IMG/VR virus record: IMGVR_UViG_2974624810_000001
Coordinates: 32,001 to 96,000 of that record
Direction: 5' to 3' (one strand)
From: a virus
Lineage: Duplodnaviria > Caudoviricetes
Length of the DNA stretch: 64,000 nt
The notes under the pieces are model-generated. The model was given only the letters and a program-made list of their open reading frames with translations. It was not told the origin of the DNA and did no database searches. Shown piece after piece: positions 41,008 through 46,511 of this stretch. Position 1 is the stretch's first letter, and each line of letters opens with the position of its first letter. The translations under genes and the position numbers were made by a program.

Positions 41008-41157
41008 TTTGGGTCGAAAGAGATACGGTTATCTTACAATGGATAATAGGTTCGATTCCTATCGGTGCTGTAACATGCGCTGTGTAAGGTCATCCGAGAT
41101 GTGCGTGGTAGGATGGCATTGGGACTACGCTCTCTCCGTTCTCATCACTTACCTAAA
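41008..41157 (+). ncRNA. Y-RNA-like RNA 2 (YrlA-type, tRNA-mimic domain)
   Basis: TTTGGGT/ACCTAAA stem, GTCGAAAG, then T-arm ATAGG-TTCGATT-CCTAT, closed acceptor-like hairpin, D-like arm with TGGTA. Confidence 0.8.
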
Positions 41158-41166
41158 GGACTTATT

Positions 41167-41688
41167 ATGACGGTACTTCTTAGGACAATCCATGGAAGTC
41201 ACTTGTACGGACTCGCTCATAAGGGTTCAGATAAGGACATCTATGAAGTAATCGCTACGAAGCGCACCGCTCGTAAGCGAAACATTAAGCAAACCATCGT
41301 GAATGGAGTTGACAAAACGGTTGTAGACCTGTCAACATTCATGCATATGGTTGACGAATGCGTACCTCAAGCACTTGAAGCACTATGGACGCCGGTAGCT
41401 GAAGTTGATAGACTTCACGAATTCCGGACACAATATCGAGTGAATCGTGCCAAGATGAAGGAAGTATACATTCGAACTGCTCTGAACTTTGCCAAACACG
41501 ATGACGTAAAGCGTAAGCGACATGCAATTCGCTTGCTTCTGAATCTTGGTGCAGCATTGGAATACGGGAAGTTCAATCCCCGACTGTCCAATATGGATAA
41601 GTTCATTCTCCGCTCATCACTCGGAGAATCTGGAGCATATGAGGACGTCTTCCTTGGCGTTCTTGATGAAGTACAAAAGTGGGTCTGA
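41167..41688 (+). CDS. Pol-beta-superfamily nucleotidyltransferase (RlaP-like)
   Basis: HGSHLYGL...SDKD; AAGGA RBS before ATG 41167. Confidence 0.8.
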   Translation: MTVLLRTIHGSHLYGLAHKGSDKDIYEVIATKRTARKRNIKQTIVNGVDKTVVDLSTFMHMVDECVPQALEALWTPVAEVDRLHEFRTQYRVNRAKMKEVYIRTALNFAKHDDVKRKRHAIRLLLNLGAALEYGKFNPRLSNMDKFILRSSLGESGAYEDVFLGVLDEVQKWV

Positions 41689-41819: not shown

Positions 41820-43637
41820 ATGGTAGATTTCGACAAGAGACATTCCAAGGAACTTGTGAAACGCCCTGACACAGACCTGGAGATTTCCAGGTCTTTTCGG
41901 TCTTCCGGTCAGGGTGTATTTTCGCATGTCCGGAAGGGTGTCAAAATAACGAGTAAGGCCATTCTGGATTGGGTCTATCTGAATGACTATAAGGAAGAGA
42001 TTGCCAAGGCTAGAAGTGATGGCAATCTGGAAAAGGCCCGGAAGCTGAAGATAGAGCAGGAAAAGCGTAGTGAACCAAGACGTAAAAGGTTCTACTCCAT
42101 CCTTGCTGTAGTTATTGCAATAATGGGATGGGCTTACGTCACCTGGAAGATAGTTCCATTGATTGTCATTGGTGTCGCCGTCCTTGTTGCCATGTGGTTC
42201 GTAGGCAGTGGCATGAAGCCTCAGAATCTGGCCTCTGTCATTGCTGGAAAAGGTGATGAAGTCGATGACCCTATGGAGCCTTTTCCAATTGCCGACGCTC
42301 GAAACAGAGACGAGGCTCAGGAGTGCTTGAGACGAGCACTGCTTGCTGAGGGAATCACTCCCAGAGTTATCTTGGAGCCAGTTCGTTACAATTGGGGTTG
42401 GGAAATCCCGGTAGTTCTGAGAAAGGGTACTCCTGATGATGTAATGGCTAAGGCTAAGAAGATGGAGACACTACTAAGACTTCCTAGTGATGGAATGCTA
42501 GTAGCTGCTACTCGATTCCGGGCCGAAGTTGTCATCAGACTTATGCAGACTGACCCATTTGCTGATATGCCTCCAGACCAAAGAGCAGAGCCTTTGTCTC
42601 GTTCTATTAAGAACAAGTACAAGATTGCTCAGCGAATGGATGGTCAGCACATTGAAATCTCCTTGCTTAGAAATCACGCAGTTGTTATTGCTGCTCCTGG
42701 TGGCGGTAAGTCAATGTTCATGCGTAAGCTGGCAGACATCACCACTAGCTGTAGAGACTGTGTAACCTGGGACATTGACCCTGGCGGCAATGGACTCGAA
42801 GTTTTCGGAGGAGCTATCGCAAGGCGCGGTAGGACCGAAGAGGAAATTGAAGAAATGCTAACCGAGGCTTTGGAATACACGAAGATTCGTGCAAAGAAGC
42901 TGACGAAGCTGGGAATGGGTGACAACTGGCAGCCAAGCAAGGACCATCCTGCCCTCATTATCTTCATTGATGAGTTCATTCAGCTAAACAAGAAGTGCAA
43001 GGATTTGGCCATTCAGATTATTCGCAATGGTCGTAAGGCTGCTATTACCGTTGTTTTGGCTGCACAGCAGGCTACAAAGGACACTCTTGGCGCTGCTATT
43101 GCAGATGCAGTGTCTATCAAGGTAATGTTTGCTTCTCGTCATGCTGACGTACCTCTCGTGTTCGGTGAGGGCATGTTGTCACAGGGCTGGAGACCTGATA
43201 GACTGCATCCAGCTTCAGGTGAAGACGTGGAAGACGCTGGTAAGTGCTACATTTTGGGCGGTGGCTCAAGAGAGCCTTACCTGTACAAGGTCTATCCAAT
43301 AGAACCAGATGAAGCCATTGAGATGGGTGATGAGCGTGAAGCAGAGGGCATGCCCGAACTTGACACAGACACCTACCTTGATGTTACAGTGACAGACACA
43401 ACAGACAAGCTCATGTTCGAACACGTGCTTGACATCTTTGAGAACTTTGACGAGCATGACTGGCTACCAGCCAGCATCTTGGTCAAGGAACTCAAGGGTT
43501 ATGGCCACACCTTGACAGCTCGTCAGTTGCATGAGATTCTGGGAGACACCGGCAGAGAAAGCCGTATTTGGGATGGTTCCAAGTACAAGGTTGCTGGTTA
43601 CTTCCGTAGAAACATCGAGAAGCAATTGGAGAAGTAG
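41820..43637 (+). CDS. FtsK/TraB-like membrane DNA translocase
   Basis: Two TM helices, AAPGGGKS, DIDP, IFIDEF, GRKAAIT...AAQ, C-terminal wHTH-like domain ending in GY. Confidence 0.85.
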   Translation: MVDFDKRHSKELVKRPDTDLEISRSFRSSGQGVFSHVRKGVKITSKAILDWVYLNDYKEEIAKARSDGNLEKARKLKIEQEKRSEPRRKRFYSILAVVIAIMGWAYVTWKIVPLIVIGVAVLVAMWFVGSGMKPQNLASVIAGKGDEVDDPMEPFPIADARNRDEAQECLRRALLAEGITPRVILEPVRYNWGWEIPVVLRKGTPDDVMAKAKKMETLLRLPSDGMLVAATRFRAEVVIRLMQTDPFADMPPDQRAEPLSRSIKNKYKIAQRMDGQHIEISLLRNHAVVIAAPGGGKSMFMRKLADITTSCRDCVTWDIDPGGNGLEVFGGAIARRGRTEEEIEEMLTEALEYTKIRAKKLTKLGMGDNWQPSKDHPALIIFIDEFIQLNKKCKDLAIQIIRNGRKAAITVVLAAQQATKDTLGAAIADAVSIKVMFASRHADVPLVFGEGMLSQGWRPDRLHPASGEDVEDAGKCYILGGGSREPYLYKVYPIEPDEAIEMGDEREAEGMPELDTDTYLDVTVTDTTDKLMFEHVLDIFENFDEHDWLPASILVKELKGYGHTLTARQLHEILGDTGRESRIWDGSKYKVAGYFRRNIEKQLEK

Positions 43638-43638
43638 A

Positions 43639-43854
43639 ATGTGGACAGCAGGAGTCATCCTGTATATCGCAGTCTGCGCCTACCTTTGTAAGAAGAAGGG
43701 TTGGCAGATTCATTACATTGCCTGGGGTATGGTGGGTGGTCTCATTCTTGCGACCATCGTTCCTTCCCTTCCGGCGCAGACGAAGACAACAATGGAGAAT
43801 GCTGCTCAGGCAGTCGTTTCAATCTTCGAAAGTTCAGGCATCGGGCAGGGTTGA
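43639..43854 (+). CDS. Small membrane protein
   Basis: GGAG RBS; two hydrophobic segments; starts 1 nt after translocase. Confidence 0.65.
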   Translation: MWTAGVILYIAVCAYLCKKKGWQIHYIAWGMVGGLILATIVPSLPAQTKTTMENAAQAVVSIFESSGIGQG

Positions 43855-45748: not shown

Positions 45749-46137
45749 GCGCTGTTCTTCTAGGTGTGCTGATGCACTTCATTGGTGACTATCTCATTCA
45801 GACAGACTGGATGGCACAACTGAAGACAAAACGCTGGGCACCAGCAATTGTCCACGGTGTCACATACGGTGTCCCGTTTGTCTTTGTCACGATGTCACCG
45901 ATAGCTTTGGCTGTCATCATTGTCACTCACATTGTCATCGACCATTATCGCCTGGCACGACATGTCGTCTGGGCAAAGAATCAGCTCGCCCCCAAGGAAT
46001 GGCGTTATTCATGGGCTGAGGGAAACCTCACTGGATATCGCAATGACGCACCGCCTTGGCTGACAACTTGGCTGATGATTATTGCGGACAACACAATCCA
46101 CATTGTCATCAACACTCTGGCCATCCTCTATCTATGA
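45745..46137 (+). CDS. Membrane protein (DUF3307-like)
   Basis: HFIGDY..QT.WMA..K, H...Y, H..ID, DN..H. Confidence 0.8.
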   Translation: MSAVLLGVLMHFIGDYLIQTDWMAQLKTKRWAPAIVHGVTYGVPFVFVTMSPIALAVIIVTHIVIDHYRLARHVVWAKNQLAPKEWRYSWAEGNLTGYRNDAPPWLTTWLMIIADNTIHIVINTLAILYL

Positions 46138-46145
46138 GGATGGCT

Positions 46146-46245
46146 TTTGTCATTCCCAGGACACTTTGTCATCTGTCCAGTGACACGTCCTGGGACATGA
46201 GGACATGTCCAGTGACATTCATGTGACATGTCCCAGGGCTGTCCT
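46146..46245. repeat. GACA/TGTC repeat locus
   Basis: 12 GACA/TGTC cores in 100 nt; TGTCCAGTGACA at 46174 and 46206. Confidence 0.85.
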
Positions 46246-46511
46246 CGAAATTTGAAAAATGGCGGGCGGCTCCGTATTCGCATCTCGTTTGTTCATTTGC
46301 GAGAGGGCGGCCCGGCGGCCCAGAAGGCGGAACTATGTCTTAAGAACCAGATGCAAGGAAGGGACCTAATGAGGTTCAAGGAGGGAGTTGACAGGATTCT
46401 AGAAGAGGTGCTAAGGTGTAGTTACACTAGAAAATATAAAGAAAAAGATGTTGAAAAACATCTAGAACCGATTAGAAATAGGTTCTAAATAATATAGAAT
46501 AAGATAAGGAT

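What the first reader, a model, noticed from the sequence alone, without database searches (positions are those of the whole stretch)
41820..43854. TraB-like DNA translocase plus small membrane protein in a lytic-type phage
Seen: a 605-aa protein with two TM helices, an FtsK-type ATPase and a C-terminal wHTH-like domain, followed 1 nt later by a 71-aa two-TM protein. Established: this domain order matches TraB of Streptomyces plasmids and integrative elements, which moves dsDNA between hyphae, binds repeat loci (clt) through its wHTH, and works with small Spd membrane proteins. Inference: the phage may move unpackaged genomes across hyphal cross-walls or between hyphae without virions.
Basis: partly seen in the sequence, partly recalled or inferred. 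Interest (0 to 1): 0.72.

Follow-up and report, generated by a model that had tools for sequence, protein, structure and literature searches.

The report
Plasmid-type DNA pump in Streptomyces phage
A large lytic Streptomyces phage carries a conserved membrane-anchored DNA-pumping motor and a tiny membrane partner whose nearest relatives sit on Streptomyces plasmids, integrative elements and prophages, so it may move naked phage DNA between hyphal compartments; that function is untested.

Summary
Window 41820-43637 encodes a 605-aa protein with a two-helix membrane hairpin, an FtsK-fold motor with intact Walker A and B motifs, and a C-terminal winged helix. A 71-aa two-TM protein starts 1 nt after its stop codon.

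The window lies in a 132-kb cluster-BE Streptomyces phage with no integrase. GenBank relatives already annotate the gene as "FtsK-like DNA translocase". Both genes are conserved in synteny in the four BE relatives examined. The translocase gene occurs in 87 phage records and is under purifying selection.

The protein is not a chromosomal FtsK and not a canonical TraB. It scores 29.8 bits against NCBIfam TraB (cut-off 800). In the tree it sits in a separate, well-supported clade of translocases from mycelial actinomycetes. That clade holds pFP1-type plasmids, AICE-like integrative elements and full prophages. In those elements the gene lies behind GntR repressors and next to DUF2637 membrane proteins.

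The small partner has positional, weakly homologous counterparts in Pseudonocardiaceae elements. The phage also encodes a DUF2637 protein elsewhere in its genome.

"Works like TraB/Spd" is a reasonable but untested inference. No clt-like array of 8-bp repeats lies beside the gene.

The parts
41820..43637 (+). 605-aa membrane-anchored FtsK/TraB-superfamily dsDNA translocase (phrog_12531)
   Evidence: ORF and translation. phrog_12531 matched end to end, 1391 bits. AF2 model pLDDT 89.9. Best fold matches are FtsK motor domains. 87 BE-phage records hold a match covering at least 80% of the query; the full-length hits listed are 58-94% identical. dN/dS 0.11-0.19.
42090..42212 (+). Transmembrane hairpin (residues 91-131)
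   Evidence: Kyte-Doolittle 19-residue windows score 1.7-2.7. AF2 helices span 70-109 and 112-130. G129 is at least 90% conserved in 99 homologues.
42267..43379 (+). FtsK-fold alpha/beta motor (residues about 150-520), with Walker A at 42690-42710 and Walker B at 42954-42974
   Evidence: Foldseek against 2ius, 2iut and 6t8g gives E 1e-15. K297, R357, E385 and G456 are invariant. hhalign against canonical TraB gives probability 98.4, E 5.7e-15, over residues 191-525.
43398..43631 (+). C-terminal winged-helix domain (residues 527-604)
   Evidence: DSSP topology is H-b-H-H-b-b-H. The top structural neighbours are mostly winged-helix domains, with Z up to 7.2. G593-Y594 is invariant in 28 homologous C-terminal domains.
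43639..43854 (+). 71-aa two-TM partner protein (phrog_12950), probably translationally coupled
   Evidence: It starts 1 nt after the translocase stop. In Coruscant, Wofford and Tomas the start overlaps the stop as TAATG. The KKKG-x-Q loop and WG..GGL motif are conserved. dN/dS is 0.06-0.47. An HMM of the small downstream ORFs from Pseudonocardiaceae elements picks this ORF as the top hit among 1057 ORFs of the phage genome, E 0.002.
46146..46245 (.). GACA/TGTC-dense spacer, a candidate protein-binding array; any link to the translocase is unproven
   Evidence: It holds 11 cores per 100 nt, against a genome mean of 1.04. It is one of only two such loci in the 132-kb genome; the other is at genome 13.4-13.9 kb. 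It is conserved in Navo, Coruscant and Wofford and absent in Tomas.

Best explanation
Shown: this is a conserved two-gene module of cluster-BE (Boydwoodruffvirinae) Streptomyces phages. The large protein is anchored in the cytoplasmic membrane by a TM hairpin. It carries an intact FtsK-fold ATPase motor of the kind that forms hexameric rings around double-stranded DNA, and it ends in a winged helix suited to recognising DNA. The 71-aa two-TM protein is made with it. The module belongs to a distinct clade of mobile-element translocases found only in mycelial actinomycetes, on pFP1-type plasmids, AICE-like integrative elements and prophages.

Inferred: as with TraB and the Spd proteins of Streptomyces plasmids, the motor assembles at membranes or septal cross-walls. 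It binds replicated, unpackaged phage DNA through the winged helix and pumps it, using ATP, into neighbouring hyphal compartments. The small partner, and possibly the phage's DUF2637 membrane protein, would help form or gate the passage. One infection could then exploit more of the mycelium than the compartment it entered.
For: Architecture and catalytic motifs.

TraB is the nearest curated family by HMM and by profile-profile comparison: 98.4% probability over 333 columns, against 48% over 164 columns for chromosomal FtsK.

In the tree, the BE clade (support 100) is nested in a 51-row clade (support 100) of plasmid, integrative-element and prophage translocases.

In four of five complete plasmids the family member is the only gene with any PF01580-like signal; the fifth has none. 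All five hold one strong match to the family profile. In the plasmids annotated here it lies after a GntR repressor gene, and in several of them next to a DUF2637 membrane protein. GntR (14 of 43 loci) and NUDIX recur beside the chromosomal homologues.

An Amycolatopsis element of about 10.7 kb carries NUDIX, GntR, the translocase and a serine recombinase, which matches the AICE gene set of PMC2440964.

The small TM partner is conserved and coupled and has counterparts in Pseudonocardiaceae elements.

The phage also encodes a DUF2637 protein above Pfam's cut-off. This protein is a BE core gene. On plasmids its homologues lie 3-6 kb from the translocase homologue.

All named hosts of the clade are mycelial genera.

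Purifying selection acts on the gene across BE phages.

PMC4447253 shows that TraB plus Spd proteins mediate intramycelial plasmid spread. It also suggests that SpdB2 homologues on actinophages may spread phage DNA.
Against: No experiment links this protein to DNA movement of any kind.

It fails the sequence membership tests for TraB (29.8 bits against a cut-off of 800) and sits in a separate clade.

No member of its own clade has a demonstrated conjugation role in the literature I could search.

Several close relatives lie in the early regions of complete prophages. There the protein could serve replication or another phage function.

No array of four or more identical 8-bp repeats lies near the gene. 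The GACA/TGTC arrays are distant, and their binding protein is unknown.

The gene sits among tRNA genes, not in an obvious functional module.

The winged-helix assignment rests on middling structural scores (Z up to 7.2).
Confidence: 0.4

Rival explanations
1. Host manipulation. The protein acts on the host rather than on phage DNA. It could mimic or interfere with septal FtsK, chromosome segregation or septation. It could also act as a Kil-type growth arrest factor, as unregulated traB does, to hold the mycelium in a state favourable for phage replication.
For: The literature lists phage ftsK-like genes with whiB, parB and ssgA as candidate manipulators of Streptomyces development (PMC10117723; PMC13587820). 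traB expression without its GntR repressor is toxic (PMC4447253), and the phage has no GntR. The motor has the FtsK fold.
Against: The protein is closer to mobile-element translocases than to host FtsK. It lacks the FtsK N-terminal domain, the linker and a detectable gamma domain. A mere toxin would not need an intact motor plus a conserved winged helix under purifying selection.
Confidence: 0.2
2. Intracellular phage DNA handling. The membrane-tethered motor organises, segregates or untangles replicating 132-kb phage genomes or concatemers within one compartment. It might, for example, anchor replication or packaging factories at the membrane. No DNA would cross an envelope.
For: Close homologues lie in the early regions of complete prophages, a few kb upstream of terminase and portal. 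In the window the gene lies about 4 kb downstream of the terminase genes. Weak PHROG similarity to a large-terminase family, phrog_2666, E 1.7e-6.
Against: The phage has its own terminase. Membrane anchoring, a coupled 2-TM partner and a DUF2637 protein fit transport across a membrane better. The same clade is the only FtsK-like gene on small plasmids that lack virion genes.
Confidence: 0.15
3. Competition or exclusion. The phage copy interferes with conjugative plasmids, AICEs or superinfecting phages that use related translocases. It could form mixed rings, or it could expel incoming DNA.
For: Relatives are common on Streptomyces mobile elements that share hosts with the phage. AICEs carry immunity functions such as Pif NUDIX (PMC2440964). 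Satellites of BE phages carry DUF2637 homologues.
Against: There is no direct evidence. The gene is strictly conserved as a core gene across divergent BE phages with different hosts, which is unusual for exclusion genes.
Confidence: 0.08

Closest known systems
TraB of Streptomyces conjugative plasmids (pSVH1/pSG5 type; NCBIfam NF041214)
   Same: Both have an N-terminal membrane anchor, an FtsK-type motor and a C-terminal winged helix ending in a G-x-Y-R-I-like wing motif. TraB is the best NCBIfam hit. hhalign gives 98.4% probability over 333 columns. Both are followed by small membrane-protein genes with overlapping or abutting stop and start codons (PMC4447253).
   Different: The score is 29.8 bits against a cut-off of 800. 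The phage protein sits in a separate clade in the tree. The phage has no GntR Kil-Kor partner. No clt of identical 8-bp repeats was found. The gene is carried by a lytic phage.
FtsK-like protein of pFP1-type Streptomyces plasmids (NC_006912, CP108056, CP108398) and of AICE-like integrative elements of Pseudonocardiaceae
   Same: They belong to the same clade, with 35-51% identity over the TM hairpin and motor. Pseudonocardiaceae elements have a small 2-3-TM ORF directly downstream that matches the phage partner. A DUF2637 protein is present in both the plasmids and the phage.
   Different: The plasmid proteins are 860-970 aa, and the one scanned here (CP108056) has an FtsK_gamma domain at the N-terminus. 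The cellular copies have diverged C-terminal domains. They sit beside GntR, NUDIX and recombinase genes that the phage lacks. None has a published transfer assay that I could find.
Chromosomal FtsK / SpoIIIE
   Same: This is the best solved-structure match for the alpha/beta motor. The Walker motifs and the QQ(A/R) sensor region align.
   Different: There is no Pfam FtsK_SpoIIIE or FtsK_gamma hit at E up to 1. The phage protein has 2 TM helices and a short linker, where FtsK has 4-5 TM helices and a long linker. The NCBIfam FtsK model gives E 0.096. FtsK serves as the outgroup on a long branch.
TcpA coupling protein of pCW3 (Clostridium) and T7SS EccC/EssC ATPases
   Same: These are the second tier of fold matches (E 1e-14 to 1e-10) and of NCBIfam hits.
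   Different: EccC and EssC have three tandem ATPase domains and secrete proteins. TcpA works with a Tcp conjugation apparatus that is absent here.

Membership tests
Streptomyces plasmid TraB (NF041214) | Whole-protein score over the curated NCBIfam cut-off (800 bits) | tested here: not met
   29.8 bits, E 2.2e-7, covering residues 286-461 only. Genuine TraBs from Streptomyces genomes score 816-999 bits.
Streptomyces plasmid TraB (NF041214) | Placement inside the TraB clade in a motor-domain tree | tested here: not met
   The TraB rows form their own clade (support 100). The phage protein lies in a different 51-row clade (support 100). The deep branching order is unresolved (quick IQ-TREE, SH-aLRT only).
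Streptomyces plasmid TraB (NF041214) | Domain order: membrane anchor, FtsK-like translocase, C-terminal wHTH | tested here: met
   TM hairpin at 91-131, motor at about 150-520, winged helix at 527-604.
Streptomyces plasmid TraB (NF041214) | Kil-Kor pairing with a GntR-family repressor (TraR/KorA) | tested here: not met
   No PF00392 match in the complete phage genome. A GntR gene is present beside the plasmid and chromosomal relatives.
Streptomyces plasmid TraB (NF041214) | A cis-acting clt with direct 8-bp repeats bound by the wHTH | tested here: inconclusive
   No 8-mer occurs four or more times within 400 nt near the gene. Degenerate GACA/TGTC arrays exist at window 45841-46251 and at genome 13.4-13.9 kb. 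Binding is not testable with these tools.
Streptomyces plasmid TraB (NF041214) | Sufficient for conjugative dsDNA transfer, and acts with Spd proteins in intramycelial spread | not testable with these tools
   This needs genetics. Indirect evidence only: a coupled 2-TM partner and a DUF2637 membrane protein in the phage.
Chromosomal FtsK/SpoIIIE (PF01580 + PF09397) | Pfam FtsK_SpoIIIE domain over the gathering score | tested here: not met
   Not listed at E up to 1; only weak AAA_22, AAA_10 and AAA_19 hits appear.
Chromosomal FtsK/SpoIIIE (PF01580 + PF09397) | C-terminal FtsK gamma domain | tested here: inconclusive
   No PF09397 hit. The C-terminal domain is a winged helix, but FtsK-gamma is not among the listed structural neighbours.
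Chromosomal FtsK/SpoIIIE (PF01580 + PF09397) | FtsK alpha/beta motor fold | tested here: met
   Foldseek E 1.3e-15 to 2ius_D, 407 aligned columns, TM-score to target 0.68.
PHROG 12531 / 12950 (BE-phage FtsK-like protein and its small neighbour) | End-to-end profile match | tested here: met
   phrog_12531 at 1391 bits over 1-605. phrog_12950 at E 6e-41 over 1-71.
T7SS EccC/EssC | Three tandem FtsK-like ATPase domains | tested here: not met
   The model and alignment show a single motor. The EccC hits are partial, at 14-24 bits.

The most novel reading that the evidence does not exclude
A lytic tailed phage uses a conjugation-type machine to pass naked, replicating genomes through hyphal cross-walls, or even between touching hyphae. 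The machine would consist of the TraB-like translocase, the small TM partner and an Spd-like DUF2637 protein. The phage would therefore spread inside a multicellular bacterium without virions. A corollary concerns the related Streptomyces prophages that carry the same translocase together with GntR and NUDIX genes: these could be elements that are both phage and conjugative element.
Probability: 0.25. Interest if true: 0.9.

Novelty: new variant of a known kind. Interest (0 to 1): 0.6.

Why it matters
Streptomyces grows as compartmented hyphae, so a phage that enters one compartment faces barriers that unicellular hosts do not present. Plasmids solve this problem with TraB and the Spd proteins.

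A core, strongly conserved phage module from the same superfamily has its closest relatives on plasmids, integrative elements and prophages. That makes one question directly testable: can phage genomes spread within a mycelium without virions? The answer would bear on how plaques form and how infections are contained in multicellular bacteria.

The work also defines a translocase clade that Pfam PF01580 and NCBIfam TraB both miss. Surveys of actinomycete conjugative elements that rely on those models would overlook it.

Tried and rejected
1. Chromosomal FtsK copy acquired from the host. Rejected: there is no PF01580 or gamma hit, FtsK is distant in the tree, and PF01580 does not detect the clade in the two host genomes searched.

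2. Canonical TraB member. Rejected by score and by tree placement.

3. Packaging ATPase. Rejected: the relative Navo annotates separate small and large terminase genes about 4 kb upstream of the translocase gene.

4. GACA cluster at 43362-43431, inside the gene's 3' end, as a clt. Rejected: all six cores are on one strand and encode Asp-Thr repeats.

5. HMM of the phage small protein searched against 7737 ORFs of the cellular loci. The best hit was only E 0.18, although positional partners ranked first and fourth. The reverse search gave E 0.002.

6. pIJ101 SpdA, SpdB and KilB have no Pfam family. DUF2637 therefore cannot be equated with SpdB here.

7. The 462-aa protein upstream of the Streptomyces homologues resembles the plasmid DUF2637 protein only weakly (E 0.078).

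A 20-row alignment was used instead.

10. The FtsK profile used for hhalign had only two sequences, so that comparison understates the similarity to FtsK.

11. Two plasmids carry a second 680-712-aa ATP-binding protein with no Pfam family. "Only FtsK-like gene" therefore holds only at the sensitivity of PF01580 and the family profile.
Full report
**What is there**

ORF 41820-43637 (+) encodes 605 aa. Its TAG stop is followed by one base and then by an ATG at 43639, which opens a 71-aa ORF ending at 43854.

The large protein has two adjacent hydrophobic helices at residues 91-109 and 111-131. Its Walker A motif is APGGGKS (K297) and its Walker B motif is LIIFIDE (D384, E385). K297, R357, E385 and G456 are invariant in a 99-sequence alignment of homologues.

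An AlphaFold2 model built on that alignment has mean pLDDT 89.9. It shows N-terminal helices, a TM hairpin, a mixed alpha/beta motor and a C-terminal H-b-H-H-b-b-H domain at residues 527-604. Foldseek against the PDB ranks FtsK motor domains first (2ius, 2iut, 6t8g; E about 1e-15, about 410 columns). The pCW3 coupling protein TcpA comes next, then EccC/EssC and HerA.

I folded the C-terminal domain alone from a 28-sequence alignment in which G593-Y594 is invariant. Its top neighbours are mostly winged-helix domains: PadR, MarR, Fur, Rex, RAP30, RTP and the Cdt1 and MCM8 winged-helix domains. The scores are only middling (best Foldseek E 0.04; best Z 7.2), and FtsK-gamma is not listed.

The observation therefore holds. 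"wHTH-like" is right at the level of fold class.

**Where it comes from**

The window is bases 32001-96000 of a complete 131,976-bp virus record with 10,818-bp direct terminal repeats. GC content is about 48%, and the window holds 33 tRNA genes. This is a cluster-BE Streptomyces siphovirus.

Megablast of the locus finds 72 Streptomyces phage records at up to 89% identity. These annotate the pair as "FtsK-like DNA translocase" plus "membrane protein" or "hypothetical protein". By tblastn, 87 phage records hold a match covering at least 80% of the protein, and the full-length hits listed are 58-94% identical. All are BE-type phages of about 120-135 kb. One distant hit (24%) is in phage Gilgamesh.

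The order nucleotidyltransferase, translocase, small protein, tRNA-Ile is kept in Coruscant, Wofford and Tomas. In those three the stop and start overlap as TAATG. Pairwise dN/dS is 0.11-0.19 for the translocase and 0.06-0.47 for the small gene, although dS is near saturation for the distant pairs.

The complete genome has no tyrosine or serine integrase and no GntR regulator. This fits the virulent lifestyle predicted for Coruscant (PMC7650747).

**Which family**

Pfam gives no FtsK_SpoIIIE or FtsK_gamma hit at E up to 1. In NCBIfam the best model is plasmid TraB (29.8 bits, E 2.2e-7, far below the 800-bit cut-off). EccC follows, and FtsK reaches only E 0.096.

An exhaustive phmmer search of 1.84 billion representatives finds 641 relatives at E up to 1e-3 and 80 at E up to 1e-30. 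Named relatives are hypothetical or "FtsK/SpoIIIE" proteins of Streptomyces, Amycolatopsis, Kibdelosporangium, Actinokineospora, Crossiella and Micromonospora.

tblastn finds homologues on 52 Streptomyces or Kitasatospora plasmids. The best are 37-44% identical over residues about 118-513 (E about 1e-85) and include pFP1. A scan of one genome per species finds 43 chromosomal loci in Streptomycetaceae and Pseudonocardiaceae, and one in Micromonospora, at 35-51% identity. IMG/VR holds 13 BE-type contigs and 11 further viral contigs of 19-75 kb with 38-49% identity.

I built a motor-domain tree of 82 rows and 373 columns (IQ-TREE quick search, SH-aLRT support). The BE proteins form one clade (support 100). 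That clade is nested in a 51-row clade (support 100) that holds the plasmid, prophage-context and integrative-element proteins. This larger clade is separate from the canonical TraB clade (support 100), from pIJ101 Tra and from chromosomal FtsK, which I used as outgroup. The deep branching order is unresolved.

Profile-profile comparison of the phage-plus-close-relatives alignment with canonical TraB gives 98.4% probability (E 5.7e-15) over 333 columns. Against two Streptomyces FtsK sequences it gives 48% over 164 columns, but that profile is thin. pIJ101 Tra aligns at 22% identity over 257 residues.

The protein is therefore TraB-like in architecture and superfamily, but it is not a member of the curated TraB family. 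PF01580 does not detect the clade in the two Streptomyces genomes searched that carry it.

**What the relatives sit in**

On pFP1-type plasmids (39-46 kb) the 860-970-aa homologue follows one or two GntR regulator genes on the opposite strand and a DUF2637 membrane protein. It precedes a run of small unannotated genes. This is the layout described for tra/spd regions (PMC4447253).

In four of five complete plasmids the family member is the only gene with any PF01580-like signal, and the fifth has none. All five hold one strong match to the family profile. The plasmid protein from CP108056 carries its FtsK_gamma domain at the N-terminus.

I clustered the neighbours of the 43 chromosomal loci. 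A GntR+UTRA regulator appears in 14 loci and a 462-aa protein sits immediately upstream in 17. Large serine recombinases appear in 12 loci (fam 6 in 7, fam 10 in 5), most of them Pseudonocardiaceae. NUDIX hydrolases, DUF6919 and DUF6197 also recur.

An Amycolatopsis element of about 10.7 kb lies between housekeeping genes. It carries NUDIX, HTH regulators, GntR, the translocase and a serine recombinase. This is the AICE gene set of PMC2440964 and PMC3218068, except that I did not identify a Rep gene.

Unexpectedly, six Streptomyces loci have a large terminase (phrog_9), and five of them also an SPP1-type portal, 6-9 kb downstream. In Streptomyces sp. NPDC059534 the 676-aa homologue (49% identity) lies in a complete siphovirus prophage with repressor, terminase, portal, protease, major head protein, 1476-aa tape measure, distal tail protein and endolysin.

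The clade is thus shared by plasmids, integrative elements, temperate phages and the lytic BE phages. All named hosts are mycelial actinomycetes.

**The small partner and a second membrane protein**

The 71-aa protein keeps the pattern TM1, KKKG-x-Q loop, WG..GGL TM2 and a tail across BE phages.

In nine Pseudonocardiaceae loci the ORF directly downstream of the translocase encodes a 66-141-aa protein with one to three predicted TM segments and a similar basic loop. In three of these loci (L025, L034, L035) it overlaps the translocase stop by 4 nt. An HMM built from eight of them was searched against all 1057 ORFs of at least 40 aa in the phage genome. The phage partner was the top hit (E 0.002, 14.4 bits). 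The reverse search is not significant (E 0.18), although positional partners rank first and fourth of 7737 ORFs. I read this as probable homology. At minimum it is a conserved two-gene arrangement.

Outside the window, at genome 13520-14422 on the minus strand, the phage encodes a 300-aa membrane protein. It matches Pfam DUF2637 above the gathering score (27.3 against 22.8 bits). It is another BE core gene and is also present in the satellites MiniFlayer and Mulchroom. Homologues occur on 71 Streptomyces plasmids, where they often lie 3-6 kb from the translocase homologue.

I could not show that DUF2637 equals SpdB. pIJ101 SpdB has no Pfam family.

**The proposed clt**

Window 46146-46245 holds 11 GACA/TGTC cores per 100 nt, against a genome mean of 1.04. 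It belongs to one of only two such loci in the genome. The other lies at 13.42-13.90 kb, over the 3' half of the DUF2637 gene. The two share GGACATGTCC and CCTGGGACATG.

Both arrays are conserved in Navo. The window-locus array is also conserved in Coruscant and Wofford, and that spacer is absent in Tomas. They are probably protein-binding arrays. Nothing ties them to this translocase, and they are not arrays of identical 8-bp repeats. No 8-mer occurs four or more times within 400 nt near the gene. The small GACA cluster at 43362-43431 is a coding effect of Asp-Thr repeats.

**Mechanism**

The following is shown: an intact, membrane-anchored FtsK-fold motor with a winged helix, a coupled small membrane partner, membership of a mobile-element clade restricted to mycelial actinomycetes, and strong conservation.

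The following is inferred. The motor forms a ring at a membrane or septal cross-wall, recognises phage DNA and pumps it into adjacent compartments, as TraB and the Spd proteins do for plasmids (PMC4447253). [quoted passage not shown] A TraB-type motor in a phage was not discussed in any paper I found. The Streptomyces phage literature instead lists these genes as FtsK-like candidates for manipulating host development (PMC10117723, PMC13587820).

I put the spread mechanism at about 0.4. The rivals are host manipulation or Kil-like arrest (0.2), intracellular handling of phage DNA (0.15) and exclusion of competitors (0.08).

**Verdict**

This is a new variant of a known kind: a distinct, phage-borne branch of the TraB/FtsK translocases with its own small partner. 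Its function is still open.

Notes e1-5865313 and e1-5865327 describe the GACA/TGTC array.

Noticed in passing
window 45841-46251, and genome 13420-13900 (outside the window; locus L110 about 2420-2900): These are the only two loci in the 132-kb genome with extreme GACA/TGTC density (11-12 cores per 100 nt against a mean of 1.04). They share GGACATGTCC and CCTGGGACATG. One overlaps a DUF3307 membrane-protein gene and its downstream spacer. The other overlaps the 3' half of a DUF2637 membrane-protein gene. Both arrays are conserved in Navo. The window-locus array is also conserved in Coruscant and Wofford and is absent in Tomas. The binding protein is unknown.
   Followed up: partly
L110:2521-3423 (-), which is genome 13520-14422, outside the window: A 300-aa phage membrane protein matches Pfam DUF2637 above the cut-off. 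It is a BE core gene. Homologues occur in the satellites MiniFlayer and Mulchroom and on 71 Streptomyces plasmids, often a few kb from the translocase homologue. It is a possible Spd-like partner.
   Followed up: partly
L018:1-21050 with L049:1-16000 (Streptomyces sp. NPDC059534 contig): A complete siphovirus-type prophage carries a 676-aa homologue of the translocase in its early region. Related loci add GntR and NUDIX genes, which are hallmarks of actinomycete integrative conjugative elements. These may be hybrid phage/conjugative elements.
   Followed up: partly
L002:11050-13641 (plasmid CP108056): The plasmid homologue from CP108056 carries an FtsK_gamma winged helix at its N-terminus (residues 20-73), whereas FtsK and TraB carry theirs at the C-terminus. 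The DNA-recognition module appears to have moved. The longer pFP1 and CP108398 proteins were not scanned.
   Followed up: no
window 41101-41688: The gene directly upstream of the translocase encodes a 195-aa RlaP-type (RNA-repair-pathway, DNA polymerase beta family) nucleotidyltransferase. It is conserved in the same position in Navo, Coruscant, Wofford and Tomas.
   Followed up: no
L080:6518-8560 and L081:5350-7488 (plasmids CP108176 and CP129916): Two plasmids carry a second 680-712-aa ATP-binding protein upstream of the translocase homologue. It has no Pfam family and no match to the clade profile. Its role is unknown.
   Followed up: no
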